This document shows, one piece after another, positions 1,793 to 29,871 of a DNA stretch of 64,000 nt. The DNA lies in contig NZ_DASWMD010000058.1 in the NCBI RefSeq assembly GCF_036399935.1, positions 1 to 64,000 of the forward strand. Direction: 5' to 3'. The notes under the pieces were generated by a model that was not told where the DNA came from, made no database searches, and saw only the letters and a program-made list of their open reading frames with translations. The stretch's first letter is position 1. The number at the start of each line of letters is the position of its first letter. Source of the DNA: Longimicrobium sp. (GTDB taxonomy: Bacteria > Gemmatimonadota > Gemmatimonadetes > Longimicrobiales > Longimicrobiaceae). Made by a program: the position numbers and the translations under genes.

Positions 1793-4700
1793 CTAGCTCT
1801 GCTTCTTTGGCAGCGGCCAGATCCGGAGCGGTTTTCCATCACCTACGATGGGCAGGTTCTGCAGCGCTTCCTCCATGCGCGACTCCTCGGCCGCCGTCGC
1901 GTCGCCCTGCTCACCCGCGGCCACGGGGACCGGCTCTGTGACAGCGGCCGGCTCGGCGGCGGGGACCGGGTCCTCGGCGGCGACGGTCGATGCCGCGGCG
2001 GCGACCGGCTGCACGACGGTGACCGGCTGCGCGCGGACGGCGGAGATCACCCGCAGCATGGCTTCGGCGGCCTGGCTCTGCTGCGCCTGGCCGACGCGGA
2101 TCACCTGCTGGCTGGCGTGGATCGCCTCGACCAGCGGCGCGATCGCGGCGCGGATCACGTCAGGGAGCTCGTCCGGCAGGCGGACCGGCTCCGGCGCGGG
2201 CGGCGGTTCCGCGGCGGGCGCCGGGGCTGACGCGGCTGCACCCAGCGCTTGCAATCCGCCCGCAATGTCGGCCAGCTGGGCGACCACGCGGCCGCCCACG
2301 TCGGCGTCGTCGCTTCCCATCGCCTTGTTGCGCAGGAAGTCGCGCTTGATCTGCTCCCAGCGCGCGGCTTCGTCCGGGGTGAGCACGCCGCGCAGCTCCT
2401 TGAGCTTCAGCAGGTTCTCTTCCGCACCCGTGGTGAGCAGCTGCGCCTCGCCCTGGTAGTGGTCGGAGATCAGCTGCTGCAGCTCGGCGTCGTTCATCAC
2501 CGGCGAAATCTTCTCCGCCAGCTTGTTCATGTTGCGGTAGCTGCCCTGCAGCTTGAACGCCGGCTCGGTGCGGTACCGGTCTGCCTGGGCGGCGCTGGCG
2601 ATGTACTGCTGGTTGACGCGGTACACCACGTCGCGCGCCTTCATGATGCGCTTGAGCGTTTCGACAATCTCGTTGATCTCCGCCGCGCCGTAGGCATGGC
2701 TGAGCCCGTTGGTGGAAACGTCGAGCCCCTTCGCGCGGTCGGCGAACAGGTACAGGTCCGCCATCTCGCGGGTGGCGAGCGGCGCCAGCACCGGGTTGGA
2801 GGTCAGCGAGTTCTCGATGTAGCTGAGCGTGAACGCGTCTTCCATCCCCCCGAGCACGTCGCCCAGGTTGTAGATGTCGGCGCGGTTGGCGAGCATGTCG
2901 GGGATCTTGAAGACTTCGCCCGACTCGGTGTACGGGTTGCCCGCCATCACCACGCAGAACTTCTTGCCGCGCAGGTCGTACGTCTTCGTCCCCCCCCGCC
3001 ACACGCCCTCGATGCGCCGCGTGCCGTCGCAGAGGGAGATGAACTTCTGCAGGAACTCGGGGTGCGTGTGCTGGATGTCGTCGACGTACAGCATCACGTT
3101 GTTCCCCATCTCCAGCGCCAGCCCCAGCTTTTCCAGCTCCTGCCGCGAGGTGGCGTCGGGCGCCTGCGCCGGGTCCAGCGAGCGCACCTCGTGGCCCAGC
3201 GCGGGGCCGTTCACCTTGACGAAGACCAGCCCCAGCCGGTGCGCCACGTACTCCATCAGCGTGGTCTTTCCGTACCCCGGGGGCGAGATCATCATCAGCA
3301 GGCCCATCAGGTCGCTGCGCTTGCCCTCACCCACCGTGCCGATCTGCTTGGCCAGGTTGTCGCCGATGATGGGCAGGTACGTGTCGTTGATGAGCTTGTT
3401 GCGCACGAACGACGTCAGCGGGCGTGCCCGCAGCTCGCCCAGGCGCAGCGCATCGCGCTCTCGCGTGGCGATCTCCTGGCGGATGGCCTGGTAGCGGCGG
3501 TAGCCCGGGAGAAAGCGGTCGCGATGGTCGCGCAGGCGGCCCAGGAACTCGTCAATCGCCAGCGTCAGCCGGCCCCCGTCGATGCGCGGATGCTCGCCCA
3601 GCAGCCCTTCGACCGTGGCCAGCGGCTGCGCGTGATTGGGCCGGCGCTGCAGCTGGTTGCGGGTAAGGATGAGCGCCGCCGCCTCCGGGACGTAGCGCGC
3701 GATCGGGGCGAGGGCGGCGTCGGTGCACAGCGCCTGCAGCCAGTGGATGACGTGCTCGTACCGAGCGGCCGGGCGGTCCTGCAGCTGCTCGAGCATCTGC
3801 CCGAAGGCCGTGCGGAGATCGGCTTCGCCCAGGCGCGACAGGAGCGCGTCCGTCAACTCGCGGGCGGGGAGCGAAAGGATCAGCCCCTCGTGCCCGCCGG
3901 CCAGCTCGTCGAACAGGTACGATGCGGAATCTGCGGCCACGGCGGCGCTGAACGGCAGGGCATTGGCCTCGGCGAAGGCGCGAAGGCGGTTCGCGATCTG
4001 GCCGCGGAGCGCGTCCGCGGCGGACCGGGTGCCGAACAGGCCCTGCATCGCCTTGGCGCTGGCGACGCCCGCCTTCCACTCCCGCGCATCCTCGTCTCCC
4101 TGCGCGGCCGCCCAGAAGAGCGCGGCGAGCGCGCGGGGCTCGGGGGCGTGCACCAGCTCGCCCGCGGCCTCCAGCTGGGCCAGGGCCGTGCGCAGGATCA
4201 GCGTGGCGTCGTGGTCGTGGATGCCGCGCTGGTAGCCGTCGCGGTAGCGTGGGGCGGCGAAATCGACCACCGTCTTGCCCAGCGCGTCGCCCTCCGCGGC
4301 GTGCTTGCGCAGCAGCTCCATCGAAAGCCCCTCCGCGCCGGCCTGGGCGGCGGCCAGCACCTCGCCGGCCAGGTACTCGCCGCGGTAGAGCGTGGGGGAT
4401 TCCGACTCCAGCGACACCTGCCAGTAGTCGCGGAGCGCCGCCAGCTCTTCGCTGTGGATGGGCTCCATGAAGTCGGTGCCCGTCAGGTGCACCGCCAGCT
4501 CGTCCCCACGCGGCAGGATGGTGAGATCCAGTGGCTGCGTGCTGACGCTGAAGCGGTGGCGGCCCAGCTTGATGACGTTGCCGCCGCCCTCGAACAGGTC
4601 GGTGCGGTCGCGCAGCGCGCGAACGGCGCCGTCGCGGGCGCTCTTGACGCGCGCCTCGACGTCGTCGGCCTTCACCGGGTCCTTCAGCGCGCGTAGCCGC

Positions 4701-7183: not shown

Positions 7184-7388
7184 CTGCGCTTACCTGGATG
7201 GCGACGTGGATACCCGGGGACCGATGCGTCCCCGGCACTTCCTGCTGAACAGCGGCCACACGGAAGCCTGGCGAGCGAGGAGGCGATTCGAGACCGGCCG
7301 TGCATGCCCCGGCTGCCCTCTCCCCCCGGCCCCCTCTCCCGCAAGCGGGAGAGGGGGAGAACTGCACCACGCTCGGTCGCGAGGCCTA

Positions 7389-9410
7389 TCAGCCTACGGG
7401 CTCGGCCTTGGGCGCCACCACCTGGTCGAACACCTCGGGGGTGATGGGCACGCTCAGCCGCTCGCGGGGCTCGGGGCGCGACACGCCCAGGAAGCGCTCC
7501 ATCAGGTCCTGCACGATGGGGCTCTTGCCCGCGAAGCCCTCGATGGACTTGCCCAGCGTCAGCGCCTTGGAGAGCGACTCGAACATGCCGCCGTCGCCGC
7601 CCACGAGGTCGATGTTGGCGTTGCGCAGCGCCGAGGCGATGACCTCCGCGTTCTCCTTGCTGACGTCCTTGCCCGCCGCGATGGCGGCCATGGCCTGGTC
7701 GAAGTGCGCTTCCAGCGTCATGCGGAACTCCTCGTGCGTGCGCGCACGGTCGCTCAGCCCGTCGATGGCCTCGAACTTCTTGGTCAGCCCCTCGGCTTCG
7801 GCGGTGAGCTTGCGGGCCGTGACCGTGGCCTCGGCCAGCCCCACCGACTCCACGGCGGACGCCCGGGCCTGCCCCAGCCGCGTCTCGCCGTCCGCCTCGG
7901 CGCCCATCCGCTCGCCCAGCACGCGCGCCTCGGCGGCGCCCTGCTTGTAGGACGCGTCGGCCTTGGCCTCCATCACCCGCGCCTCGGCGGAGCCCACCTT
8001 TTCGATCGCGGTCGCCTCGGCCTCGCGCACGGCGGCCTCGGCCAGGCCGGGGGCGGCCATCTCGACCTTGAGGGCCTCCGCCATCAGGCGCTTGGCGTCG
8101 GCGTCGCGCGACGCGGCGTCCAGCCGGGCCTGCGCCATGGTCGTCAGCTCCAGCGCGCGGTGGCGGGCGGCGGCCTCGGAGGCCTCGGCGTCCTTGACGG
8201 CGCGGACGGCGGCTTCCTGCGCGGCGGCCTCGGCGCCCAGCACGCGCGCCTGCTTGTCGCGCTCGGCCTCGGAAACCACGCGCACTTCCTTGATGCGCTC
8301 TTCCTCGACCGTCACCGTCTTGTCGATGGCGATGCGCTCGCGGGTGATGTTCGCGACGTCCTTCTTGCCCACCTCGACCACCTTGTCGCGCTCCACGCCC
8401 TGCAGCTGCACCTCGCGGTCGGTCGTCACCTCTTCCAGGGCGCGGGCCCGGGCCACGCGCTCCACCTCGATGGCGACGGCGCGCTGGCGGTTCTGCTCGG
8501 CGACTTCCACCTCGCGCTGCACGTTCTGCTCGCGGATGCGGATCTTTTCGTCGGACTCCAGCCGCGCCTGCTCGGCGATCAGGCGCTGTTCCTCGCGCAC
8601 GCGGGTGGTTTCGGCGGTCTCGCGCGCCTGGATCGTCTCGATCTCGCGCTTCTGGCGCGCCTCGGCCTCGGCCTGCTGGCGCTCCAGGGCCAGGGTGGCC
8701 TCGCGGGCCTCGACGTTCTTCTTGGTGATGGCGAGCTTTTCGTTCTGCTCCAGCTCGTTGGTCACCACGTTCTGCGTGGCGGTGCGCTCGGTGATCTTCC
8801 GGATGCCTTCGGCGTCCAGGATGTTGTTGTGGTCCAGCAGGTGCTTGGGCGTCTGCTCCAGGTAGTCGATGGCTACGTCCTCGAGCACGTAGCCGTTCAG
8901 GTCGTTGCCGATGACCTTGACGATGGCGTCGCGGAACTCCTGGCGCTTCTCGAACAGCTCGGTGAACTCGAACTTCTTGCCCACCGTCTTCAGCGCCTCG
9001 CTGAACTTGGCGTTGAACAGCTCGTCCACCGCCTCGCGGTCCGACGCGCGGCTGGCGCCGATGGCCTTGGCCACGCGCAGCACGTCGGCCTGCGTTTCGT
9101 TGACGCGCAGGTAGAAGGCGACGGTGATGTCGGCCCGCATGTTGTCCTTGCAGATCAGCCCTTCCTTGCCGCGCCGGTCCACCTGCAGGGTGATCAGGCT
9201 CACCCGCATCAGCTCGGCCTTGTACAGCACGGGAATGATCAGGCTGCCGGTGAAGCGCACCTTGGGCTGCGAGCTCATGTCGTTGATGATGAGCGCCGTT
9301 CCCTGTTCCACCTTCATGTAGAAGGCCTTGAACAGGGCGAAGGTGCCCAGCAGCATCAACAGCAGGATGCCGACGCCGAGGGCGAAGGGGAGAAGGAGGG
9401 ACGCGCTCAT
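7389..9410 (-). CDS. Flotillin / SPFH (band-7) family protein, YqiK-like
   Basis: N-terminal TM helix followed by an SPFH domain (GTALIINDMSSQPKVRF...), then a long Ala/Glu/Arg-rich coiled-coil typical of flotillins. ATG at 9410. Confidence 0.85.
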   Translation of the reverse strand: MSASLLLPFALGVGILLLMLLGTFALFKAFYMKVEQGTALIINDMSSQPKVRFTGSLIIPVLYKAELMRVSLITLQVDRRGKEGLICKDNMRADITVAFYLRVNETQADVLRVAKAIGASRASDREAVDELFNAKFSEALKTVGKKFEFTELFEKRQEFRDAIVKVIGNDLNGYVLEDVAIDYLEQTPKHLLDHNNILDAEGIRKITERTATQNVVTNELEQNEKLAITKKNVEAREATLALERQQAEAEARQKREIETIQARETAETTRVREEQRLIAEQARLESDEKIRIREQNVQREVEVAEQNRQRAVAIEVERVARARALEEVTTDREVQLQGVERDKVVEVGKKDVANITRERIAIDKTVTVEEERIKEVRVVSEAERDKQARVLGAEAAAQEAAVRAVKDAEASEAAARHRALELTTMAQARLDAASRDADAKRLMAEALKVEMAAPGLAEAAVREAEATAIEKVGSAEARVMEAKADASYKQGAAEARVLGERMGAEADGETRLGQARASAVESVGLAEATVTARKLTAEAEGLTKKFEAIDGLSDRARTHEEFRMTLEAHFDQAMAAIAAGKDVSKENAEVIASALRNANIDLVGGDGGMFESLSKALTLGKSIEGFAGKSPIVQDLMERFLGVSRPEPRERLSVPITPEVFDQVVAPKAEPVG

Positions 9411-9440
9411 CTGCTGGACCTTTCTGAAGGGTTGGATTGC

Positions 9441-10070
9441 TTACCGGCCAAGGAACTGCTGCTCCGATACCACGCGATAGGCGTTCTGCGACTCGATGTA
9501 CTCGATGAGCACGATGCGGTCGCCGCGCTGGAGCGGGTTGGGGCCGTCGTGGCGCACCTGCAGGATCAGCCCGGCGCCGCCGTCGTCCACCGACGCCTGC
9601 CCGTAGTCCGCGGACAGCGTGGGGGTGACGACCACCGCCGACGTCCCCACCAGCGAGCGTTCGACGGGGCGCATCTTCGCGAGCGCGCGGCGCACCGGGC
9701 GCAGCGCGAGGGAGGTCACGGCCACGGCGGGGACGAGCACGCCCACCATCGTGCCGATGCCGGCCAGCGTCCGCACGCCTTCCGGCAGGCCGCCCAGCAC
9801 CAGCAAGTGAACGAAGTACGCGCCCAGCCACGCGGTGAACACCAGCGTGGTGGCCACCACCGTGAAGGGCACGCCGCCCAGCCCCAGCTTCGAGAGCATC
9901 GCCGCCGCGGCGCCCGCGTCAGTCGCGTGTCCGTCGCCCACCAGCGCGTCGACGGAATCGCCGTCGGCCAGGCCGGTGACCGCGAGCACCCAGTACAGGG
10001 TGATGACGGCCAGCAGCATGCTGTAGACGATGGTGGGAAAGCCGAGGGCGGTCTGCAGGAACTCGTTCAC
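9441..10070 (-). CDS. NfeD-like (YqiJ-type) membrane protein, flotillin partner
   Basis: Multiple N-terminal TM helices and a C-terminal OB-like segment. Sits immediately upstream of flotillin, matching the yqiJ-yqiK arrangement. GTG start. Confidence 0.6.
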   Translation of the reverse strand: MNEFLQTALGFPTIVYSMLLAVITLYWVLAVTGLADGDSVDALVGDGHATDAGAAAAMLSKLGLGGVPFTVVATTLVFTAWLGAYFVHLLVLGGLPEGVRTLAGIGTMVGVLVPAVAVTSLALRPVRRALAKMRPVERSLVGTSAVVVTPTLSADYGQASVDDGGAGLILQVRHDGPNPLQRGDRIVLIEYIESQNAYRVVSEQQFLGR

Positions 10071-10418
10071 GGTGGTTGCGGTCCGCGTTCGTTCGGCGTT
10101 TGGCGAAGCCGCGTGGCGGCTTCCCCAAGTTCAACGGAGGAACGGGCTTCGGAGTTTCGAACGGGAGGGGCGGCCGCCCGGGAGGGCTGCAGATCGCCGC
10201 CGACGAGGCGGCGTGTCCGGCGACGGCACATCAGATGTTTGGAACCTAAACGTGCGGACCTGATTACGTCAACTCTCAGGCGGCGGGTTTCGGCGCCGGC
10301 GGCCGGGGTCGATGGCCCGAATTCCTTGCAGGAGACGGAGAGCATCGCCTACCTTCCGGCAGAAGCTCGCCCCGCCGCCGCACGCCAGCGCCCGTTCACC
10401 ATCAACCGCACCGCACGC

Positions 10419-10898
10419 ATGACTCGTTTCCGCTGGGCACTCGTCCTCGTCTTCGCCCTTGGTGCCGCGCCGCTCCACGCGCAGGATGCGGAAGAGGATG
10501 CGCCGGAACCGGCGCCACGCGGACGGACGGCGCAACTGGCCGCCCTCGGCCTTCGCTACGGGGCCCCGCTCGGCGCCTCCGCCTACACCGGTGTCATCAT
10601 CGCCCCGCGCGGCCCCGACTTCATCCAGGGGCCATCGATCATCGGCGAGGTGGGGCAGGATGGCATGCGGCTGTCCGTGGGCATGTCATCCGTAAGCCTC
10701 GGGGGGTCGTATCGTGCGCAGGCGAGCCTCATCCGCACGTGGGACCCTCACGCCGACATCGAGCCGGGCCAGACGTACCTCGGGCCGGAGGTCAGCGCGG
10801 GGCTGATCCTGGGAATCACCGTGGGCCACTACTGGCGGATCAGCGACGGCGGCGGGCCGGCACGGTTCTTCGCGATCGGCTCGTTCCTCGGAGTCTGA
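10419..10898 (+). CDS. Small secreted protein (signal peptide), unknown function
   Basis: The start is MTRFRWALVLVFALGAAPLHAQ. It is the only coding-like part of the spurious 1320-aa ORF 6936..10898. Confidence 0.4.
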   Translation: MTRFRWALVLVFALGAAPLHAQDAEEDAPEPAPRGRTAQLAALGLRYGAPLGASAYTGVIIAPRGPDFIQGPSIIGEVGQDGMRLSVGMSSVSLGGSYRAQASLIRTWDPHADIEPGQTYLGPEVSAGLILGITVGHYWRISDGGGPARFFAIGSFLGV

Positions 10899-10915
10899 CC
10901 CGCGGCTGCGATGGG

Positions 10916-11371
10916 TCATCCAGAGACCGAGCGCAATCCGTCATCCAGAGGCCCGGGCGCACTGAACTGGCCCGCAGCGCATACCATGCAGGGCCGTGGG
11001 ATCTTGCCGCGGGAGCGACTGTGCCCGGGCGCGGCAGCGACACGGAACCCTGGGCCTCGGTCCTGGTCCTCGCCTGGGGGTTCGGCCCAAGCCTCCCCGG
11101 GCGAATGAATTCGGAATTGTGTACTTGACGAAACCGGATATAGCCGGATCATCCGCCGCCCCGTCCACGGGGGCGGCTCCACACCCGACGAACGCACCGC
11201 GCGCCCGGCCCCGGAGCCTTTCAGGTACAGTGCGGCAAGCCGCATCCGGATACGCGGGTGCGGCATGGACCCGCGCAAGAAACTATGCAAGGTAGAGTGC
11301 TGCACCCCGGCCCGTTCAGCGACGGCGCGGATAGACTCAGCTTCGGCGCATTCCGCGAACCACTCCCGCAT
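10916..11371 (-). CDS. Small HTH-like protein, paralog of 35744..36112; C-terminus runs into the IS-end repeat
   Basis: SIRAVAERAGVQHSTLHSFLRGSMPHPRIRMRLAALYL aligns with SIRAVAQEIGVGHSTLYKFIGGSTPRARVRARLLAWYV. The ATG at 11371 is in frame. The 3' portion overlaps repeat 10996..11112, so the gene is probably truncated or altered. Confidence 0.4.
   Translation of the reverse strand: MREWFAECAEAESIRAVAERAGVQHSTLHSFLRGSMPHPRIRMRLAALYLKGSGAGRAVRSSGVEPPPWTGRRMIRLYPVSSSTQFRIHSPGEAWAEPPGEDQDRGPGFRVAAAPGHSRSRGKIPRPCMVCAAGQFSAPGPLDDGLRSVSG
10996..11112. repeat. Solo copy of a ~115-bp repeat identical to the 5' end region of the degraded IS1595-family element at 16046..16158
   Basis: Near-identical string cggcagcgacacggaaccctgggcctcggtcctggtcctcgcctggggg...gaattcg at both loci. 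No transposase is attached at this copy. Confidence 0.6.
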
Positions 11372-11412
11372 GTCCTCCACGCGGACGCCCTTCCACGCGT
11401 CCCGGTTTACGC

Positions 11413-11772
11413 TCACGGCGCCACCTCGCACCGCAGACCGGCCAACGCGGGCACCAGCACGTCCGCGAGCGCCTTCCTGACGCGCACCCGTTCCGCAAGC
11501 GGGAAGGTGTCGGCCAGCAGGTTCAAGGCTATGTCCACGGGTTCCATCTCTGGCGGCTCGCGTCCCTCCGCGTACCTGTGCCCCGCGTCCCACAGCGCCC
11601 CGCCCGGCTCCCCGCCACCCATGAACGCCGTCAAGTCGTCCACCGGCACGCCCAAGGTGCGCGCCAGCACAGGCGCGGGGACGGTCTGCAGTTCGGTGCG
11701 AAAGAGCGCACGCATCAGCGCGTACCCTATCGCATAGTCCATCGCGACAACCGCCTCTTTCGCGTTCATCAT
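11413..11772 (-). CDS. Hypothetical protein (119 aa)
   Basis: Ordinary amino-acid composition. Sits upstream of and co-oriented with the HTH-like gene. Confidence 0.35.
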   Translation of the reverse strand: MMNAKEAVVAMDYAIGYALMRALFRTELQTVPAPVLARTLGVPVDDLTAFMGGGEPGGALWDAGHRYAEGREPPEMEPVDIALNLLADTFPLAERVRVRKALADVLVPALAGLRCEVAP

Positions 11773-11886
11773 AGGCCGTGTTCCCCTTGCGGCGGGTGAG
11801 GTCTGGGCGTAGCCTGTCCAGTGTACCTCTAACCCATTCTCGCAATTCTCGCACCCGCTGGCGTGCGGGTGCGGGGCGGCGCTCGT

Positions 11887-12246
11887 ATGACGCCGCCTGA
11901 ACGCACTATGCCCGTCAACGCCATCCGCGACGCTGTGCGGCGGGCAGCGGCGGCTACGTCCGTGCGCTCAGTCGCGCGGGGCTCCGGCCTCAGTGACCAG
12001 GGGCTGAAATACTTCTTGGAAGGGGGCGAGCCGCGCGCGGGCACGCTTCGCAAGCTAACCGAGTGGTACGTGCGGGATGCGGCGAAGTTGGGCGAGTTGG
12101 ACGCGGAGACGGTGCAGGCGGCGCTATCCGTGCTGCTGGCCGACATGACCGAACCCCAGCTATCCGCAACCCGGCGTGCCGTGCTGGATGCGATCCGTGA
12201 GGGCTACAAGGCCATGGGGCGGGACGTGCCCGGCTGGCTCGGTTGA
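11887..12246 (+). CDS. Small HTH-like protein, second paralog of the same family
   Basis: SVRSVARGSGLSDQGLKYFLEGGEPRAGTLRKLTEWYV matches the family motif. Divergent from 11413..11772. The start could be 11863, 11887 or 11908. Confidence 0.5.
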   Translation: MTPPERTMPVNAIRDAVRRAAAATSVRSVARGSGLSDQGLKYFLEGGEPRAGTLRKLTEWYVRDAAKLGELDAETVQAALSVLLADMTEPQLSATRRAVLDAIREGYKAMGRDVPGWLG

Positions 12247-12494
12247 AACCTACGCGCGGCACCTGCGTATGGATGCGGGACGGAGGCACTTCCGCCGCCG
12301 CCAGGTGCACCCCATCAAGGAGGTGTGTGCTTGAAGCGTTTCTCATACTGACCGCCCGGACGGTTCATGGCTTGGACTCGAACCAATGGAACGGGGCGGT
12401 GCGGCGCGTGGGCAAACGATCCATACAACTAACGGTAAGCTGAGGTTGGGGATTCCTCCCAAAAGACTCCCCGCCGTCCAGAGCCCACGCAACA

Positions 12495-12532
12495 GAGCGG
12501 GCCGGGTCCACTAAGACCCGGCCCGCTCTCGT
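12495..12532 (+). terminator. Perfect 14-bp-stem hairpin followed by a T-rich tract
   Basis: GAGCGGGCCGGGTC-cactaa-GACCCGGCCCGCTC, followed by tcgtttgtgt. Confidence 0.5.
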
Positions 12533-12577
12533 TTGTGTCCCAGCAGTCTAGACGCACAAGTAAGCATCGGGAGGGGG

Positions 12578-12748
12578 CTACTTCCCCTTTGGGCTTCGCC
12601 GCTCGCGGATGCGGGGAGCGGGCAAGCCTTCCGGGGGCACGGGCGTAGGTACGAGCCGCCGGATCGCTTCCTCAAACGGTACGTCGATCTTCAGTACGTC
12701 CGGCGCGGCGCCTCGCGTCTTCGGGCTTGGTTCGGCTTTTTCTGCCAT
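12578..12748 (-). CDS. Small hypothetical protein (56 aa)
   Basis: MAEKAEPSPKTRGAAPDVLKIDVPFEEAIRRLVPTPVPPEGLPAPRIRERRSPKGK, with an ATG start. Lies in the low-GC islet. Weak evidence. Confidence 0.3.
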   Translation of the reverse strand: MAEKAEPSPKTRGAAPDVLKIDVPFEEAIRRLVPTPVPPEGLPAPRIRERRSPKGK

Positions 12749-13096
12749 GATGGCACACCTTCGCGGTGGGAGTCGGGCCTAACGATGTGCACTCGTGGCG
12801 ACAGAGTCAACAATTTTTGCGAAATCCCGGTCCTCATCCCAGGTGTCGAAGTGAGGAGAGTGTTCATAGCGTGTACTTTCAGCCGCGCCCAAAGTGCCAT
12901 ATATCACGTACTTACAACAAGTGCGCAGAGTAGCCGGAGAACACCCAAGTCAGCCACCGGAGAACCGAAGTCGGAAGTTTCATCGTCCGACCCGACAACC
13001 GGGTTGTGCGGCGGAGAGAGTGCGCTATCTTTGTAGGGTGCTGCATCCGGCTCGTGTCCGGCCGAAGACCCCCCACAAAGAGAGGACGGCCCCGCC

Positions 13097-13690
13097 GTGA
13101 CCGACTCCGATCTGCTCCGCAGGATGGAGGACGACCTTGAACGCGCACGCGTTCGCCTGGAAGCGGCACGGCGGGCGCTTGCTGAGGCGCAGCCCCAGGT
13201 GGACGAGTTGGAGATGTTGATCCGAGGCGTGCGGCGCTACGTCACACCCGATGCGCCGCCCCCCGCACCTGCGTCGGTCGCCCAACCGGAGCCCGAGCCA
13301 GCCGCAGAGCCGCAGGTCGAAAATGGGGCAGCGCGATGGGCGAAGGATACATCGATCCGTAGCGCCGCCATCCAGATTCTCGGCCGCACCCCCGACCGCG
13401 TGGTGTCGTCGGGTGACATCGCCGCGACACTGCTGAGTGAGGGCTATCCCTACACGGGTGACACCAGCGACCTAAAGAAGCGTCTCTCCAAACTGCGGGA
13501 AACCGTTTCCGCCGTGTTGAACCAGCACATCAAGGGCGGGCACAATCCGCCGTTGGCGAAGCCCGAGCCCGCGCGGTACGCGCTGCTGCAGACGGACGTG
13601 ATGGCTGAACAGGAAAATCTTTTGAACATGAACGACGAAACGGCCGAGGACCCGCGCGCCAACGCGGACTCGACCGTTTCGGAAAGCTAA
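13097..13690 (+). CDS. Hypothetical protein with N-terminal coiled-coil (197 aa)
   Basis: GTG start preceded by a purine-rich stretch. Ordinary composition. The C-terminal half is conserved-looking (SSGDIAATLLSEGYPYTGD). Confidence 0.5.
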   Translation: MTDSDLLRRMEDDLERARVRLEAARRALAEAQPQVDELEMLIRGVRRYVTPDAPPPAPASVAQPEPEPAAEPQVENGAARWAKDTSIRSAAIQILGRTPDRVVSSGDIAATLLSEGYPYTGDTSDLKKRLSKLRETVSAVLNQHIKGGHNPPLAKPEPARYALLQTDVMAEQENLLNMNDETAEDPRANADSTVSES

Positions 13691-13845
13691 AACCGGGGAA
13701 AACCAACTGGCGTCGGCCCTCCCGGTCTTGTGCCCAACACCGAAGGCGTGAGCACATAGGGACAGTAAGCACCCCTATGGTAACACCCTGAGGTTGCGGA
13801 ATCAAGTTTCGGCCGTGCGCCGCAACTCGCACCCTGAGGTGTATT

Positions 13846-14133
13846 GTGCCCATCCCGATCAAGCGGGCCAAGCCCGCGCTGTGCCGCTCCTGCGGCCATC
13901 CCCTCACCTTCCGCCCGTGGTTCCGGGACCGGAACGGTGTCATCCACTACGCCCGCACCTACGGCAAGCGCGTGTTTGTCTGGTGCGAGGTGTGCAGCCG
14001 TGGCGGGCCGTTCGGTGGCAAGCGGTCCACCGCGCCGCGTCGGCGCCCGCCTGCGGCTGGTGCTGGTGCCGCGGTGCGTAAGCCTCGCGTGAGTGCGTCG
14101 AAGCTCCGTGCCCGCCCCAAGCCGCGCACGTAA
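13846..14133 (+). CDS. Small zinc-ribbon-like protein (CxxC...CxxC)
   Basis: GTG start with a GAGGTG Shine-Dalgarno 7 nt upstream. Cysteines C13/C16 and C47/C50. Basic C-terminal tail. Confidence 0.45.
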   Translation: MPIPIKRAKPALCRSCGHPLTFRPWFRDRNGVIHYARTYGKRVFVWCEVCSRGGPFGGKRSTAPRRRPPAAGAGAAVRKPRVSASKLRARPKPRT

Positions 14134-14155
14134 ACCGACGGACGGCTGCTGGACA

Positions 14156-14186
14156 AGCGGGGCGACGTGAGTCGCCCCGCTTTTTG
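14156..14186 (+). terminator. Rho-independent terminator
   Basis: GCGGGGCGAC-gtga-GTCGCCCCGC followed by TTTTTG, 23 nt after the stop of 13846..14133. Confidence 0.65.
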
Positions 14187-14187
14187 C

Positions 14188-14217
14188 GGACCTATTTGCA
14201 ACGTGCAAATAGGTCCG
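14188..14217. repeat. Perfect 13-bp-arm palindrome
   Basis: GGACCTATTTGCA-acg-TGCAAATAGGTCC, immediately after the terminator. Confidence 0.5.
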
Positions 14218-14407
14218 ACCTGTTCGTCACTTCTAACACAACGGTTGCGGCGAAGGGCAGTCTCTGTTTAGATAATACGGGAAAGTAAAGAACGCGCGTG
14301 AGGTTGAATACAACTTGAAGTCTGGTGTATACAACTTAGGACTGCGCACCACTCTTGCGTACTCAGCGGTGGCGCGGCACATTATAGACCCCATCGGGGT
14401 AAGGTTG

Positions 14408-14445
14408 CGCCGACGGCGTACAATGATTGTACGCCGACGCAAGTT
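14408..14445. promoter_or_regulatory. Imperfect palindrome in an AT-rich region upstream of 14473 (operator candidate)
   Basis: CGGCGTACA-atgat-TGTACGCCG core with extended arms. Lies in the most AT-rich stretch of the window (14240-14470), which also has ATACAACTT direct repeats. Confidence 0.35.
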
Positions 14446-14472
14446 AGAGCCGAGAGACCGAGAGATAGAAAG

Positions 14473-14679
14473 ATGAGCACCAAAGAGCTTGAGATGGTGC
14501 CCGTTACCTCCGAAGAGGTCTCGCCGGAGGAGTATTTGCGGATCCATGAAAAGGATCGTGGGCTGATCCAATCGGTCGGAATTCGGGGGCCGTCGCTGGG
14601 GCGTCCGGGGTTCGGTCAGATTGTCGTTGAGTACAAAACGCCGATCTACCGATACCGGCTCGGGGGCAGACTCGGGTAA
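14473..14679 (+). CDS. Small hypothetical protein (68 aa)
   Basis: ATG preceded by agagatagaaag. Ordinary composition. Confidence 0.4.
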   Translation: MSTKELEMVPVTSEEVSPEEYLRIHEKDRGLIQSVGIRGPSLGRPGFGQIVVEYKTPIYRYRLGGRLG

Positions 14680-14686
14680 GTAAACG

Positions 14687-15145
14687 ATGGCTAGACCTAA
14701 GAACCTCCCCGCCCGCCCCAGCCCGCAGCCGAACCAAGACAACGACGCACTAACGCCGACGCAGCCGGTGCAGCTGTCGCCGGCGTTAGTGCAACAGCTG
14801 GTAGAGAACCAAGCGAAAGAACTCGCGATCCGAAGCGAGGAAATCGCACTCCGGGCTAAGGAAACCGACGCCGGACACCGCTTCGCAGAAAAGGCGTTAG
14901 ACGCTCAAGTTAAGGACCGCCACGAGATCCGCGAGGAGCAGAAGCGGGGGCGTCGTGACCGGCTGTACTTCTTGGGCTTCGCTGCTGCGGTGGTGATAAC
15001 GTTTCTCGTATACCTGCTGCACACGGGTAAGGACGCCTTCGCTCAAGAAGTCTTGAAGGCCCTGATCTTCCTTTTGAGTGGCGGGACGGGCGGCTATTTT
15101 GCCGGGAAGCACCAAGGCAGGAAGCAAGAGGCGGCAGGGGAGTAG
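14687..15145 (+). CDS. Hypothetical membrane-anchored protein (152 aa)
   Basis: Follows 14473..14679 with an 8-nt gap. Has one TM helix (FLGFAAAVVITFLVYLL). Confidence 0.45.
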   Translation: MARPKNLPARPSPQPNQDNDALTPTQPVQLSPALVQQLVENQAKELAIRSEEIALRAKETDAGHRFAEKALDAQVKDRHEIREEQKRGRRDRLYFLGFAAAVVITFLVYLLHTGKDAFAQEVLKALIFLLSGGTGGYFAGKHQGRKQEAAGE

Positions 15146-15218
15146 GGCCTGTACAAATTTATATCGCCGGGGCCGGGCCTTTGTAGAGGCCTGACCCCGG
15201 TTGCCGTTCTCCCCACGT

Positions 15219-16182
15219 TCAGACCATCCGGGGCACCACAGCCGCCTTGCGGGTGAGGCGCTTCCCCTCCATCCACCGGATCAATTCCGCCGTGCGCACG
15301 CCGTCCGTCATGTGCCGCTGGTTGTGCAGCCACTCCATGTGCGTGGCGTACCTGTGCAGGTGCGGGCGCGAGAGGCGGTGCCACACGCCGAAGATGCCGC
15401 GCTCGAATCGGGCAAAGAAGCTCTCCGCACGGTTGGTGGTCACTTCCCCACGCGCGAACTCCTTGGCGCTGTGGTTGACCGTCTCGTGCCCGCCGAAGGC
15501 GCGCGCCACCGCCTTGTACGCAATGTACTCGTTGTGCAGCGTGGCGTTACGGCACACCATCTCGCGGAGCGCGTCTTTTCAGGTTGGCGGCAGTCACGTC
15601 CGCGACAACCTGAGTGCGGGCGCGGCCAGTGCTGCGCTCCACCGCGACGAGAACGGGAACGTGGTGGTTACGGCTCCGGCCGCGCCGGGCGGGGAAGATC
15701 CTCACCACGGGCGATGATCGCCTCGCGGGCCTGCTTGCCCATCTTGCGCGGCTTGCCCCCGATGAAACTTTCGTCCACCTCCACAGTGCCGGAGAGCGGC
15801 TTGCCGCTGGTGTCCACCATGCCGGATACAGTGCATCATGAAGCGGGCCGTCTTGTAGCTCACCCCCGTCTGGCGCTCAATCAGCTTCGCCGCCACACCT
15901 TTCTTGTTGCTCGCGGCCTGCCACGTCACGAACGCCCACACGCGGAGCGGAATAGGGCTATCCTCCATAAATCGTGCCGGTCCGGACCGTGAACTGCTTC
16001 TTGCAGTCCCGGCACCGCCAGCGGAAGTTCTCCTGACGCTCGCCCGATCTTACCGCGGGAGCCACTTCGCCCGTGCGCGGCAGCGACACGGAACCCTGGG
16101 CCTCGGTCCTGGTCCTCGCCTGGGGGTCCGGCCCAAGCCTCTCCGGGGAATGAATTCGCTGCAATGACCACACGATGTCCAC
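15219..16182 (-). mobile_element. Degraded IS1595-family insertion sequence; the transposase is split into three frames (pseudogene)
   Basis: Three minus-strand ORF pieces. One is 15958..16182, an N-terminal zinc ribbon (RWRCRDCKKQFTVRTGTIYGG). One is 15702..15968 (GVSYKTARFMMHCIR). One is 15219..15560 (NRAESFFARFERGIFGVWHRLSRPHLHRY). This is the ISXO2-like/IS1595 transposase signature. Frameshifts separate the pieces. Confidence 0.7.
16046..16158. repeat. Second copy of the ~115-bp repeat (5' end region of the IS1595-family element)
   Basis: Matches 10996..11112. A shared GCAA(A)TCYGTCATCCAGAG motif lies near both loci, at 10940-10960 and 16290-16312. Confidence 0.6.
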
Positions 16183-16342
16183 CTTCGTGGACTCGCCTGC
16201 TGTCGTGTGGCTGCGATGATGGGGCGCACCCCGGCCTCTCGTCCCAGTCGAGTGCTGCTTTCTGGGTCGATCGCACCATGCTCAAGCCGAGTGCAAATCT
16301 GTCATCCAGAGCAACGGCCGAGGGTTGATCCGGGCCTTCGTG

Positions 16343-16372
16343 CGGGGGAGCAGGCCACGGGGCCTGCTCCCC
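16343..16372. terminator. Hairpin downstream of the metallo-beta-lactamase gene
   Basis: GGGGAGCAGGCC-acgg-GGCCTGCTCCCC. Confidence 0.4.
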
Positions 16373-16397
16373 GTCTTGCACGGTTCCCGGGCCGAGT

Positions 16398-17309
16398 TCA
16401 GCGCGATGTCCGCTCGGTTTGCAGCCGGCCCTGCAGCCGCTCGCGCCCCGCGGCCGCGTACCGCTTGCAGGCGTTCCGGTCCACCAGCGGCTGGCGTCCA
16501 TCGAGACGCTCGAACAGCGCGGAGCCGCTGGGATGCGGGGTGATGAGGATGTCGCACGAAAGCGCCTCCAGCGTGCGGAAGCCGCGCTCGAAGTCGGCCA
16601 CGGCGCCGGGATAGGCGGGGCTGTCCGTGAAGCGGAAGCCGTCCGCGGAGATCGGGGAATGGCTGTCGGCGTAGACCACGTCCACGCAGGCTGCGCCCTC
16701 GCACGACTTCCACGTCCACGTGGTGCCGCCCTGCGTGTGCCCTGGCGTCAGGTGCGCGGTAAGGGCGAGCGGCCCTACGCGGAGAGTTTCGCCATCCGCG
16801 AAGCGCCGTACGTTCCTCACGGGCGGAAAGTCCAGCAGCTCGCCGTGCTGGGGATCGCCCACCTCCGACGTGCCGTTTTCCAGGACGCCCGCGCTGGCGA
16901 CGCTCGCCGCCACCTGCGCACCCGACGCCGCCTGCAGCGCCGCCAGCCCGCCCGCGTGGTCGTAGTGCACGTGCGAGTTCAGGATGAGCCGCACGTCGCG
17001 AACGTCGAAGCCCAGCGCACGGATGTTGTCCAGGATCAGCGGCGCGGAGTTCGGGAGCGCCCCGTCGATGAGCACGTGGCCATCGGGTGAGGTCACCAGG
17101 ATGGCGGAGAGTCCGTTCGTGCCGACGTAGTAGGTGTTCCCGTGGATCTTCACCGGTGCGTGGGGCTCGTTCCACGCGGCGCAGGTGGGGCAGAGCGCCG
17201 CGGGATACGGTCGCGTGCGCGGATCACCGGCCTGCGCGCAGGCGCTGGTGCCGGAGAGCGCCAGGAGCGCCGCGCTCGCGGCGAGGGTGCGGACGGAGAC
17301 GGGTCTCAT
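16398..17309 (-). CDS. Subclass B3-like metallo-beta-lactamase fold hydrolase, secreted
   Basis: Signal peptide MRPVSVRTLAASAALLALSGTSACAQ. HVHYDHAGG (the HxHxDH motif). About 300 aa mature length. Confidence 0.8.
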   Translation of the reverse strand: MRPVSVRTLAASAALLALSGTSACAQAGDPRTRPYPAALCPTCAAWNEPHAPVKIHGNTYYVGTNGLSAILVTSPDGHVLIDGALPNSAPLILDNIRALGFDVRDVRLILNSHVHYDHAGGLAALQAASGAQVAASVASAGVLENGTSEVGDPQHGELLDFPPVRNVRRFADGETLRVGPLALTAHLTPGHTQGGTTWTWKSCEGAACVDVVYADSHSPISADGFRFTDSPAYPGAVADFERGFRTLEALSCDILITPHPSGSALFERLDGRQPLVDRNACKRYAAAGRERLQGRLQTERTSR

Positions 17310-29600: not shown

Positions 29601-29871
29601 TCCGTTTGATGACAGGCCCCGTCGCTGCTCCGGCACTGGATGCGCCGCGCCCAATCCTGGTGTGTACCCCCTCTCCCACGCTGGTTGTGGGAGAGGGTCG
29701 CACGCGTGTCAGCGCGGCGGGGTGAGGGCCCCACGGCAGCCCAGGCCCCGGCTACGGTGAACGCTGCCGCGCCCTGAGTTGTACGCGGCCGCGGCTAGAT
29801 CCTTCGGCCCGCGCAGGGTGTGCTGCGGGCGGATGCGGTGCGCCTGGGCCTCTCAGGATGACAGGCTGGCG

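What the first reader, a model, noticed from the sequence alone, without database searches (positions are those of the whole stretch)
10996..16312. Solo IS-end repeat and a decayed IS1595-family transposase bracket a lower-GC islet of about 4 kb
An identical 115-bp segment occurs at 10996..11112 without a transposase, and at 16046..16158 as the upstream part of a three-way frameshifted IS1595/ISXO2-type transposase. Both loci share a GCAA(A)TCYGTCATCCAGAG motif, likely the terminal inverted repeat. Between them the DNA drops in GC from about 12.25 to 15.2 kb. That stretch carries small orphan ORFs (a CxxC...CxxC zinc ribbon, 56-aa, 68-aa and 152-aa proteins), two terminators and two palindromes.
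Basis: seen in the sequence. Interest (0 to 1): 0.55.

Follow-up and report, generated by a model that had tools for sequence, protein, structure and literature searches.

The report
Decayed cargo-carrying IS1595 transposon in host repeat

Summary
The repeat, the motif, the GC dip and the decayed IS1595 transposase are all real. The reading of them is only half right.

**The repeat.** It is 113/114 nt at 11000-11113 and 16046-16158. It is direct and 93% identical, not identical.

**What the islet is.** The islet at 11112-16045 is one element, a "transporter IS" of the IS1595 family. Its true 23-bp terminal inverted repeat, CGGAATTGTGTACTTGACGAAAC, lies at 11112-11134.
- Intact relatives share this repeat, show 8-bp target duplications and have the order transposase, cargo, regulator genes. 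One of them shares the window's regulator genes and their order.
- A syntenic relative has only about 540 nt at this site.

**State of the window copy.** It is dead. It has lost the transposase-proximal inverted repeat and about 57 codons. It carries four frameshifts and lacks a catalytic Asp.

**What the repeats are.** The 113-nt repeat and the GTCATCCAGAG motif are host intergenic repeats, not IS ends.
- The element inserted into the AATGAATT box of a REP-like repeat found in at least 120 metagenome loci.
- GTCATCCAGAG is the head of a second dispersed host repeat.

**What remains inferred.** How the second copy of the flank came to replace the lost end is inferred. The cargo function is unknown.

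**Verdict.** New member of a known kind, of modest interest.

The parts
10915..10950 (+). Two tandem GTCATCCAGAG heads of a host dispersed repeat (family 2).
   Evidence: exact matches. GTCATCCTGAGG...CCGAAGGATCT is a dispersed repeat, with 17 exact 12-mers in 0.9 Mb of Longimicrobiaceae loci, and the window copy aligns to it.
11000..11113 (+). Left copy (X) of the 113/114-nt direct repeat, made of host intergenic DNA. It starts in the GGATCT tail of the family-2 repeat and ends in the first 16 nt of the REP-like repeat, including the target octamer AATGAATT (11104-11111).
   Evidence: X-like sequence is present once in the syntenic relative L128 and at about 29700-29865(-) in the window. The last 17 nt match the REP-like family.
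11112..11134 (-). Distal terminal inverted repeat (IRR) of the transporter IS: CGGAATTGTGTACTTGACGAAAC. A subterminal palindrome, CCGGATATAGCCGG, follows it.
   Evidence: Unique in the window (0.00 expected). The same 23-mer, with 0-3 mismatches, bounds the elements in L003, L132 and L004 on both sides and sits at the one end seen in L002 and L133. Window 11101-11148 is 96% identical to the right end of L003.
11112..16045 (-). Remnant of the IS1595-family transporter IS (4,934 bp). It runs from the IRR to the break inside the transposase gene and has GC 0.641, against 0.69 for the window.
   Evidence: Gene order and DNA similarity to L003. GC values. Absent from the syntenic locus L128.
11225..11416 (-). 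Remnant of the third HTH-like paralog. Its C-terminal half is deleted and its stop codon is lost.
   Evidence: Matches only residues 8-59 of the 118-aa L003 protein. Weak Pfam HTH_31 and HTH_IclR hits.
11413..11772 (-). 119-aa helical HTH-like passenger protein, apparently intact.
   Evidence: 78% identical to the L003 homolog. The family is rare: 15 clusters in 1.84 billion representatives. AlphaFold2 pLDDT 93.8, all-helical. No significant PDB match.
11863..12246 (+). 127-aa (JGI call: 112 aa, 11908-12246) HTH-like passenger protein. It is divergent from the 119-aa gene and a paralog of it.
   Evidence: 72% identical to the L003 homolog. hhalign probability 91.5% to the 119-aa family. BLASTP E 3e-14 to the L003 118-aa protein.
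12578..12748 (-). 56-aa ORF conserved in related elements.
   Evidence: tblastn to L003 (E 1.5e-07) and L002 (E 1.6e-06).
13097..15145 (+). Variable cargo slot with four ORFs: 197 aa (13097-13690), 95-aa CxxC...CxxC zinc ribbon (13846-14133), 68 aa (14473-14679) and a 152-aa membrane protein (14687-15145). This is the lowest-GC part.
   Evidence: ORFs, agreeing with the JGI and ENA gene calls. PHROG 2711 (E 4e-09) and PHROG 2720 (E 2e-19), both of unknown function. No PADLOC, NCBIfam or meaningful Pfam hits.
15219..16043 (-). IS1595-family transposase pseudogene. It lacks codons 1 to about 57 (the first CxxC of the zinc ribbon), has four frameshifts, and the second catalytic Asp is lost (HTDE becomes H-NE).
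   Evidence: Pfam PF12762, E 3.7e-29. 62-66% identical to the intact P0001/P0002. Frame map.
16046..16158 (+). Right copy (X') of the direct repeat, joined directly to the truncated transposase gene.
   Evidence: No homology to the corresponding part of the intact relatives.
16145..16216 (+). Intact unit of the REP-like host repeat (family 1), with an unoccupied AATGAATT octamer at 16149-16156 and the hairpin GTCCAC-CTTC-GTGGAC.
   Evidence: Metagenome scan: at least 120 loci. Consensus and extent. Hairpin with compensatory variants. The flanks of the L003 and L002 elements match this sequence.
16287..16311 (+). It lies next to the terminator hairpin of the beta-lactamase gene (16346-16373).
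   Evidence: Window 16311-16340 is conserved in L128.

Best explanation
Window 11112-16045 is the immobilised remnant of a single transporter IS of the IS1595 family. This is a DDE transposon whose 23-bp terminal inverted repeats enclose the transposase together with passenger genes.

**How the family moves.** This rests on intact relatives and on established knowledge of the family. The Zn-ribbon/DDE transposase binds the two CGGAATT(A/G)TGTACTTGACGAAAC ends. It inserts the whole unit, about 4.2-5.8 kb, at an AT-rich octamer and duplicates 8 bp.

**Where it landed.** In this Longimicrobium-like genome the element landed in the AATGAATT box of a REP-like host repeat. That repeat lies in the intergenic region between an outer-membrane-like gene and a B3 metallo-beta-lactamase gene.

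**What it carries.**
- A conserved block of three paralogous small HTH-like proteins plus a 56-aa ORF, next to the distal end.
- A variable slot next to the transposase. Here the slot holds four small ORFs of unknown function.

**How it decayed.**
- It lost about 290 bp at the transposase end: the proximal inverted repeat, the 5' UTR and codons 1-57.
- The rest of the gene picked up four frameshifts and lost a catalytic Asp.
- One regulator lost its C-terminal half.

**The 113-nt repeat.** It is not part of the element. It is the host flank: a composite of host repeat modules that ends in the start of the REP-like unit. It is present twice.

Most probably two similar composite repeat units lay side by side, and a deletion joined the transposase gene to the second one. 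This step is inferred. It leaves an unoccupied-looking target on the right.

**The GTCATCCAGAG motif.** It is the head of a second host repeat family.
For: **Family membership**
- The reconstructed protein hits DDE_Tnp_IS1595 (E 3.7e-29).
- It is 62-66% identical to intact 331-332-aa proteins that carry both PF12760 and PF12762.

**Ends**
- The 23-mer at 11112-11134 is unique in the window.
- With 0-3 mismatches it bounds homologous elements in inverted orientation: L003 29-4242, L132 433-4934 and L004 2986-7231. L134 1557-7357 carries it with 3-4 mismatches.

**Target duplications**
- AATGAATT in L003 and AAAAATTT in L132 are both perfect 8-bp duplications.

**Same architecture**
- L003 has the order transposase, cargo, 59 aa, 119 aa (reverse), 120 aa, 118 aa, IRR.
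- It is 80% identical in DNA over 827 nt to window 11416-12240.

**Same target**
- The flanks of L003 (both sides) and of L002 (opposite orientation) match window 16130-16176 across the junction.

**Insertion polymorphism**
- L128 has flanks 88-90% identical. It has about 540 nt between the same two genes, with no element and no REP-like unit.

- The REP-like unit occurs in at least 120 metagenome loci, with unrelated sequence upstream. Its hairpin shows compensatory changes.
- The GTCATCCTGAGG family is described.
- X-like copies occur at about 29.8 kb in the window and in L128.

**Decay**.

**Lower GC is a property of the element family**.

**Not an assembly artefact**: two assemblies are identical to the window over 20.9 kb.

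**Literature**
- The IS1595 family has 8-bp duplications and an N-terminal zinc finger (PMC8101967).
- Transporter IS with transcription-regulator passengers exist in this family, for example ISNha5 (PMC11891212).
Against: - Only one inverted repeat survives in the window, so no duplication pair can be shown for this copy.
- How the second flank copy arose is not shown.
  - X and X' differ at 8 of 114 positions but are identical over the central 53 nt. That pattern is uneven for simple neutral divergence.
  - No relative with two tandem composite units was found.
  - In L128 the X-like piece is inverted relative to the flanks, so the history of the intergenic region is complex.
- The HTH-like gene block also occurs without these inverted repeats (L135, L136). 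It is therefore not exclusive to the element.
- L134 shows no target duplication, and the one in L004 is imperfect.
- Assignment to the ISNha5 subgroup rests on my memory of its ends (CGGnnTT) and could not be checked.
- Transposition of this clade has never been observed.
Confidence: 0.85

Rival explanations
1. An IS1595 element whose terminal inverted repeat is GCAA(A)TCYGTCATCCAGAG sits at the right. A solo IS end (113-nt repeat plus motif) sits at the left. The two together bracket a separate 4-kb islet, like a degenerate composite transposon.
For: The repeat and the motif do occur on both sides of the islet. The right copy abuts the transposase pseudogene.
Against: - Both repeats are direct, not inverted.
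- Intact relatives of the transposase have neither sequence.
- The motif belongs to a dispersed host repeat.
- X-like sequence is present at the orthologous site in L128, which has no element, and at about 29.8 kb.
- The true inverted repeat lies at 11112-11134, so the 'islet' genes are inside the element.
Confidence: 0.03
2. An integrative island or prophage remnant that integrated by site-specific recombination. The 113-nt direct repeats (53-nt identical core) would be attL and attR. The transposase would be an unrelated later passenger.
For: - Direct repeats flank the foreign DNA exactly.
- Two cargo ORFs hit phage protein families.
- GC is lower.
- The divergent small HTH genes resemble a repressor switch and also occur in other small-ORF contexts.
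Against: - There is no integrase or recombinase in the island.
- The left boundary is exactly the IRR of a transposon whose relatives have TIRs plus 8-bp duplications and the same gene order.
- The right boundary cuts through the transposase reading frame at codon ~58.
- No tRNA or tmRNA is nearby.
- The 152-aa protein has no match in 50,697 phage records.
Confidence: 0.05
3. Same transporter IS, but the second flank copy arose by break repair rather than by deletion between two pre-existing units. A break at or near the transposase-proximal end (for example a failed excision) was resected into the gene. It was then repaired by copying about 113 nt of X from an unoccupied allele (incoming DNA of a related strain), followed by end joining.
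For: - The right junction X'-REP is exactly the sequence of an unoccupied site.
- The relative L128 has only one X-like piece at this locus.
- The 7% divergence of X' could reflect a foreign allele. With L128 as outgroup, the one alignable difference maps to X'.
Against: - It needs a diverged donor allele and an illegitimate join.
- The region is visibly a nest of repeated modules in which tandem composite units are plausible.
- The motif CCGAG.GCAA.TC.GTCATCCAGAG is also duplicated outside X. This fits a tandem unit better.
Confidence: 0.25
4. Assembly artefact: the duplicated 113-nt segment and the truncated transposase result from mis-joining metagenome reads at a repeat.
For: The window comes from a metagenome assembly. 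A third-party unitig (L007) breaks inside the identical core of the repeat.
Against: - JGI and ENA (MEGAHIT) assemblies are base-for-base identical with the window over 20.9 kb spanning the whole element.
- The identical core is only 53 nt, shorter than typical reads.
- The two copies differ at 8 positions, so they are distinct loci.
- A unitig break at a repeat longer than 31 nt is expected.
Confidence: 0.03

Closest known systems
IS1595 family transporter IS (tIS), e.g. ISNha5 of Nitrobacter hamburgensis (Siguier et al. 2009, as cited in PMC11891212 and PMC8101967)
   Same: - Zn-ribbon plus DDE_Tnp_IS1595 transposase.
- Terminal inverted repeats and 8-bp target duplications.
- Passenger genes inside the inverted repeats, including small putative transcription regulators.
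- Total size 4-6 kb.
- Ends begin CGGAATT, which fits my recollection of the ISNha5-group end consensus CGGnnTT.
   Different: - It was found in Gemmatimonadota (Longimicrobiaceae) metagenomes.
- The transposase is below 40% identical to annotated plasmid-borne IS1595 transposases.
- Cargo is mosaic, with a variable slot.
- Three of the closest copies sit in the same box of a REP-like repeat.
- The window copy is dead.
- No direct comparison with ISNha5 was possible.
REP-targeting insertion sequences (IS1397, ISKpn1, ISPpu9, ISPpu10, ISPsy8, ISPa11, ISRm22; Tobes and Pareja 2006, PMC1525189)
   Same: A mobile element inserts repeatedly, in both orientations, at one position of a dispersed extragenic palindromic host repeat.
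   Different: - To my knowledge those elements belong to families such as IS3 and IS110 and recognise the REP itself.
- Relatives of this element also sit in unrelated AT-rich octamers (AAAAATTT, TAGTTTTT).
- The REP box may therefore simply be one of the few AT-rich octamers in a 69% GC genome. Only 83 of 63,993 positions have at least 7 A/T.
REP / REPIN elements (Bertels and Rainey 2011, PMC3116915; Nunvar 2010, PMC2817692)
   Same: - The target repeat is intergenic and high-copy in related genomes.
- It has a conserved 7-bp hairpin with compensatory changes.
- A GTAG-like tetranucleotide lies next to the hairpin on the complementary strand.
- About 13% of copies form convergent pairs.
   Different: - The conserved unit is about 75 nt, longer than a classical REP.
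- It carries an AT-rich palindromic box, GCGAAT-GA-ATTCGC.
- No associated RAYT transposase was looked for.
- There is only one copy in this 64-kb window.
Cargo-carrying transposons that shuttle defence systems (e.g. Tn7-like elements; from my own knowledge)
   Same: Related copies carry candidate defence genes in a variable slot next to the transposase. These are PDC-M24A/B, RmrA-like M78 peptidase plus DUF4411, and a 907-aa N6-methyltransferase plus Fic.
   Different: - The machinery is much simpler: one DDE transposase and no targeting proteins.
- The cargo in the window has no hit to any known or candidate defence family.

Membership tests
IS1595 family (insertion sequences) | DDE_Tnp_IS1595 catalytic domain | tested here: met
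   Pfam PF12762, E 3.7e-29, profile positions 1-151 of 153, on the frame-corrected translation. 62-66% identical to intact members. The second catalytic Asp is lost in this copy, so the domain is present but inactive.
IS1595 family (insertion sequences) | N-terminal Zn-ribbon (Zn_Tnp_IS1595, PF12760) | tested here: inconclusive
   Only the second knuckle (CRDCKKQFTV) survives; the first CxxC and everything upstream are deleted. All of the closest intact homologs carry PF12760.
IS1595 family (insertion sequences) | Terminal inverted repeats at both ends | tested here: inconclusive
   The window keeps only the distal repeat (11112-11134); none is found at the transposase end even with 3 mismatches. 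Both repeats are present in the homologous elements L003, L132, L004 and L134.
IS1595 family (insertion sequences) | 8-bp target site duplication | tested here: inconclusive
   It cannot be shown for the window copy because one end is lost. Perfect 8-bp duplications occur in L003 (AATGAATT) and L132 (AAAAATTT); L004 is imperfect and L134 has none. In the window the octamer AATGAATT abuts the IRR.
Transporter IS (tIS) / ISNha5 subgroup of IS1595 | Passenger genes not involved in transposition lie inside the inverted repeats | tested here: met
   Seven non-transposase ORFs plus a gene remnant lie between the IRR and the transposase. The same holds for L003, L132, L004 and L134.
Transporter IS (tIS) / ISNha5 subgroup of IS1595 | Passengers include transcription regulators (PMC11891212) | tested here: inconclusive
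   - Three paralogous small helical proteins share a conserved 'LAxxLGVxxxxLxxFxxGGxP' segment.
- Pfam HTH_31 and HTH_IclR hits are weak, E about 0.004.
- The AlphaFold2 model is confident (pLDDT 93.8), but Foldseek against PDB gives nothing significant; the weak top hits are Xre/HigA-type.
- L132 carries bona fide HTH_3 genes.
Transporter IS (tIS) / ISNha5 subgroup of IS1595 | Subgroup-specific ends (CGGnnTT, recalled from ISfinder) and transposase clustering with ISNha5 | not testable with these tools
   The ends read CGGAATT. The consensus is from memory: a literature search for it found nothing, ISfinder is not available, and no Nitrobacter record appeared among the listed plasmid hits.
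REP / REPIN-type host repeat (for the insertion target) | Short intergenic palindromic unit, highly repeated, with the hairpin maintained by compensatory changes | tested here: met
The conserved core is about 75 nt with unrelated upstream flanks. The 7-bp stem is 81-99% paired, with double changes at three pairs.
REP / REPIN-type host repeat (for the insertion target) | Association with a RAYT (Y1) transposase | not tested
   No search for a RAYT gene was made. None is evident in the window ORFs that were examined.
   The repeats are direct and of host origin. Only one transposase gene and one genuine IS end are present.
Integrative island with att sites | Site-specific recombinase gene plus flanking direct repeats, often at a tRNA gene | tested here: not met
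   Direct repeats are present. There is no recombinase domain in any island ORF and no tRNA or tmRNA in the window.

The most novel reading that the evidence does not exclude
The window copy would be one dead member of an undescribed clade of IS1595-family transporter IS in Gemmatimonadota, with three properties:
- It has a fixed regulatory block and a swappable cargo slot that shuttles anti-phage or toxin-type modules. Relatives carry PDC-M24A/B, RmrA-like plus DUF4411, and methyltransferase plus Fic.
- It homes to the palindromic AT box (GCG-AATGAATT-CGC) of a REP-like repeat abundant in Longimicrobiaceae, in either orientation.
- In the window it carries an uncharacterised four-gene module: a 197-aa protein, a zinc-ribbon protein, a PHROG 2711 protein and a PHROG 2720 membrane protein. 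This module could be a new exclusion or defence system.
Probability: 0.3. Interest if true: 0.55.

Novelty: new member of a known kind. Interest (0 to 1): 0.3.

Why it matters
- For annotating this genome, it turns a puzzling "solo IS end plus islet" into one defined object with exact borders. It also shows that the flanking repeats are host repeats that should be masked rather than read as IS ends.
- It documents IS1595-family transporter IS in Gemmatimonadota. They have a conserved 23-bp inverted repeat, 8-bp duplications, mosaic cargo and repeated use of one box of a REP-like repeat.
- If the cargo slot really shuttles defence modules, these small one-transposase elements would be a simple vehicle for defence-gene exchange in soil bacteria. 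The REP box would be a predictable landing site.
- The window copy itself is inactive and has no evident consequence for the neighbouring genes.

Tried and rejected
- **Structured RNA in the 113-nt repeat or the target region.** Rfam found nothing at gathering threshold over the whole window. With permissive E-values around both copies it gave only chance-level hits. Folding energies are no better than shuffled sequence on either strand.
- **The 113-nt segment as a MITE inserted into the zinc ribbon.** I considered this because removing 113 nt links two reading frames. I rejected it once intact relatives showed that about 57 codons, the UTR and the inverted repeat are missing rather than interrupted.
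- **tRNA-linked integration.** There are no tRNA genes in the window.
- **Genome-collection scan with the inverted repeat.** It gave one hit, a Gemmatimonadetes MAG. The viral collection gave none.
- **Function of the window's passenger proteins.** PADLOC, NCBIfam and Pfam gave nothing useful. The 152-aa protein has no match in the phage collection.
- **Fold of the 119-aa protein.** Foldseek against PDB found no significant match.
- **Checking the ISNha5 subgroup.** The literature search and the plasmid records did not settle it.
- **Closer relatives for the empty-site test.** The contig of the closest beta-lactamase homolog (93% identical, L129) ends 51 nt past the gene. The 80% relative is not syntenic.
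- **Reconstructing the rearrangement between L128 and the window.** The homology is too patchy.

Full report
**Observation**

- A direct repeat lies at 11000-11113 (114 nt) and 16046-16158 (113 nt). The copies differ by 7 substitutions and 1 indel; the central 53 nt are identical. The 49-nt core occurs exactly twice in 64 kb, against 0.00 expected.
- The motif CCGAG(C/T)GCAA(A)TC(C/T)GTCATCCAGAG is at 10926-10950 and 16287-16311, with an extra GTCATCCAGAG at 10915. Both the repeat and the motif are direct, not inverted.
- GC falls from about 0.69-0.70 to 0.56-0.64 between about 12.25 and 15.2 kb.
- The small ORFs agree with independent JGI and ENA gene calls.
- The two terminator hairpins and the two palindromes are there.
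- JGI and ENA assemblies are identical to the window over 20.9 kb across the region, so this is not a mis-assembly.

**The transposase**

The minus-strand gene at 15219-16043 belongs to the IS1595 family.
- The frame-corrected translation matches DDE_Tnp_IS1595 (PF12762) at E 3.7e-29.
- It is 62-66% identical to intact 331-332-aa proteins that have both the Zn-ribbon and the DDE domain.
- Homology starts only at residue ~58 of those proteins (ERQENFRWRCRDC...).
- There are four frameshifts, and the HTDE motif that holds the second catalytic Asp reads H-NE.

The 113 nt to the right of the break have no counterpart in the intact genes or their 5' regions. The right repeat copy therefore replaces the start of the gene rather than forming its upstream part.

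**What bounds the element**

The contigs that encode the closest intact transposases gave the key.
- L003 is a 4,270-nt unitig that reads: flank ...GGGCG AATGAATT | CGGAATTATGTACTTGACGAAAC ... transposase, DUF6978, 267 aa, 59 aa, 119 aa (reverse), 120 aa, 118 aa ... GTTTCGTCAAGTACACAATTCCG | AATGAATT CGCTGCAAC... It is a complete element with 23-bp terminal inverted repeats and a perfect 8-bp duplication.
- The window has the same 23-mer, with one mismatch, once only, at 11112-11134.
- Inside it the window has the same genes in the same order:
  - a remnant of the third paralog (11225-11416);
  - the 119-aa gene, 78% identical;
  - the divergent 127-aa gene, 72% identical;
  - the 56-aa ORF.
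- DNA identity is 80% over 827 nt.
- The same inverted repeat bounds elements in L132 (433-4934, duplication AAAAATTT), in L004, a Gemmatimonadetes MAG (2986-7231), and in L134 (1557-7357). It also sits at the visible end of L002 and L133.

The islet is therefore not bracketed by an IS. It is a single cargo-carrying IS, of which 11112-16045 (4,934 bp) survives.

This matches what the literature calls a transporter IS. The IS1595 family has 8-bp duplications and an N-terminal zinc finger (PMC8101967). It includes ISNha5, whose passengers are transcription regulators (PMC11891212). The ends CGGAATT fit my memory of the ISNha5-group consensus CGGnnTT, but I could not verify that.

**The islet is an insertion**

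L128 comes from another metagenome. Its beta-lactamase is 89% identical in protein, and its flanks are 88-90% identical in DNA on both sides. It is syntenic across at least ten genes. It has only about 540 nt between the beta-lactamase gene and the outer-membrane-like gene. There is no element and no REP-like unit there. Lower GC is typical of the element family: L003 0.637, L132 0.621, and L004 0.587 against 0.679 in its flanks.

The flanks of L003 (both sides) and of L002 (opposite orientation) match the window sequence across 16130-16176. The window's right copy thus looks like an unoccupied target.

*The REP-like repeat (family 1).*
Several loci came from single assemblies.
- Aligned, they share about 75 nt: GGGC GAATGAATTCGCTGCAAC(A/G)AC(C/G/T)ACACGAAGTCCGCCTTCGCGGACTACCGGC..GGTGC.GCCG. 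The sequence upstream of GGGC is unrelated between loci.
- The 7-bp hairpin is kept through compensatory changes, and about 13% of copies have a convergent partner.
- This is a REP-like host repeat. The element sits in its AT box, and the duplicated octamer is the centre of the palindrome GCG-AATGAATT-CGC.
- Only the last 17 nt of the 113-nt repeat belong to this unit.

*The second host repeat (family 2).*
- GTCATCCAGAG is the head of a repeat of the form GTCATCCTGAGG...CCGAAGGATCT. There are 17 exact 12-mers in 0.9 Mb of the fetched loci, which were selected for the REP-like repeat.
- X begins in the GGATCT tail of such a unit.
- X-like sequence recurs at about 29700-29865 (minus strand) in the window and once, inverted, at the orthologous site in L128.
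- The 3' part of X resembles the sequence upstream of REP-like units in L105, L080 and L003.

No RNA family or unusual fold is associated with them.

**How the present structure arose (inferred)**

The element inserted at AATGAATT of a REP-like unit preceded by X. About 290 bp at the transposase end are now missing: the proximal inverted repeat, the UTR and 57 codons. The gene is joined at 16045/16046 to a second X-REP unit.

I favour a deletion between the gene and a neighbouring second composite unit. Three observations point that way:
- the region is a nest of such modules;
- the outer motif is duplicated too;
- the two copies have diverged by 7%.

Repair of a break from an unoccupied allele is a serious alternative. 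The right junction is exactly an empty site, and L128 has only one X-like piece. I cannot decide between them with the data at hand.

The identity of the central 53 nt, against 8 differences in the outer 61 nt, is unexplained. Gene conversion or functional constraint are possible causes.

**Target choice**

Three of the closest copies (window, L003, L002) use the same REP box, in both orientations. More distant relatives sit in AAAAATTT and TAGTTTTT. Octamers with at least 7 A/T occupy only 83 of 63,993 positions in this window. A preference for AT-rich octamers would by itself funnel insertions into the REP box. True REP recognition, as known for other IS families (PMC1525189), is possible but not shown.

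**Passenger genes**
- The 119-, 127- and (in L003) 118-aa proteins are paralogs.
- The 119-aa family is rare: 15 clusters among 1.84 billion representatives.
- Its model is confidently all-helical with an HTH-like pair, but it has no significant PDB neighbour.
- The block also occurs outside these inverted repeats (L135, L136), so it is a mobile regulatory module rather than a dedicated transposition function.
- The variable slot in relatives holds PDC-M24A/B (L003, and by Pfam DUF6978 in L132 and DUF6978 plus DUF1828 in L004), an RmrA-like M78 peptidase with DUF4411 (L002), and a 907-aa N6-methyltransferase and Fic (L134).
- The window's slot holds four ORFs. Only PHROG families of unknown function match the 68- and 152-aa proteins. 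Nothing turned up in PADLOC, NCBIfam, Pfam or the phage records.

**Verdict**

The object is a decayed, immobilised IS1595-family transporter IS inserted in a REP-like host repeat. It is a new member of a known kind.

Its modest interest lies in the clade, not in this dead copy. The clade combines Gemmatimonadota hosts, mosaic and partly defence-like cargo, and repeated use of one REP box.

Noticed in passing
window 16145-16216; loci L008-L127: A REP-like repeat of about 75 nt (GGGCGAATGAATTCGCTGCAAC.AC.ACACGAAGTCCGCCTTCGCGGACTACCGGC...) is very abundant in Longimicrobiaceae-type metagenome contigs. The scan returned at least 120 loci and was capped, and several assemblies have many copies. 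The hairpin shows compensatory changes and about 13% of copies form convergent pairs. The 64-kb window has only one copy.
   Followed up: partly
window 10915-11004, 16301-16340, about 29700-29865 (-); L128 9204-9325: A second dispersed host repeat has the head GTCATCCTGAGG, an internal long-range stem and the tail CCGAAGGATCT. It is often extended by an X-like segment (..GCCGCGG..GGGCGCGGCAGCG..GGGCCTCGG). It recalls the 'GTCATCCTGAGCGAAGCGAAGGATC' type of repeat that I remember from other soil bacteria.
   Followed up: partly
L003 1244-2529; L132 1720-2954; L004 4269-5650; L002 1208-2832; L134 2744-5467 and 7275-8132: Related transporter IS carry candidate defence or toxin modules in the slot next to the transposase. 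L003 hits PDC-M24A/B in PADLOC. L132 (DUF6978) and L004 (DUF6978 plus DUF1828) carry the same Pfam families but were not scanned against PADLOC. L002 carries an RmrA-like M78 peptidase plus DUF4411. L134 carries a 907-aa N6-methyltransferase and a Fic protein. L004 also carries an SDH-type ClpP-like protease.
   Followed up: partly
L135 1126-2689; L136 7642-8843: The divergent block of paralogous HTH-like genes (up to 96% protein identity to the window's 119-aa protein) also occurs in contigs full of small ORFs, without the 23-bp inverted repeats. In L136 it lies next to a more distant IS1595 transposase in a different orientation.
   Followed up: partly
window 11000-11113 vs 16046-16158: Divergence between the two repeat copies is uneven. 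There are 8 differences in the outer 61 nt and none in the central 53 nt. Under a uniform rate the chance of this is about 1% by my rough estimate. It suggests gene conversion or constraint on the centre.
   Followed up: no
L128 8912-9464 vs window 10899-11113 and 16159-16398: The orthologous intergenic region of the relative is rearranged. The X-like piece is inverted relative to the flanking genes. The conserved 30-mer CGA(A/C)GGCCCGGATCAACCCTCGGC(C/G)GTTGC lies on the opposite side of it.
   Followed up: partly
window 11135-11148; L003 4188-4219: Subterminal palindromes CCGG(A/C)TATA(G/T)CCGG lie just inside the distal inverted repeat, one in the window and two in L003. They could be protein-binding sites.
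   Followed up: no
window 16398-17309 (-): The neighbouring gene is a subclass B3 metallo-beta-lactamase. Its homologs are named Longimicrobium, which places the window in Longimicrobiaceae. The precomputed Pfam list also shows a faint Anti-Pycsar Apyc1 hit.
   Followed up: no
window 6936-10898 (+) and other long ORFs: Very long spurious ORFs on non-coding strands (for example 1,320 aa) are a side effect of the 69% GC content. The real genes there are a flotillin-like 673-aa protein, a 209-aa protein and a gene for an outer-membrane-like protein of about 155 aa.
   Followed up: no
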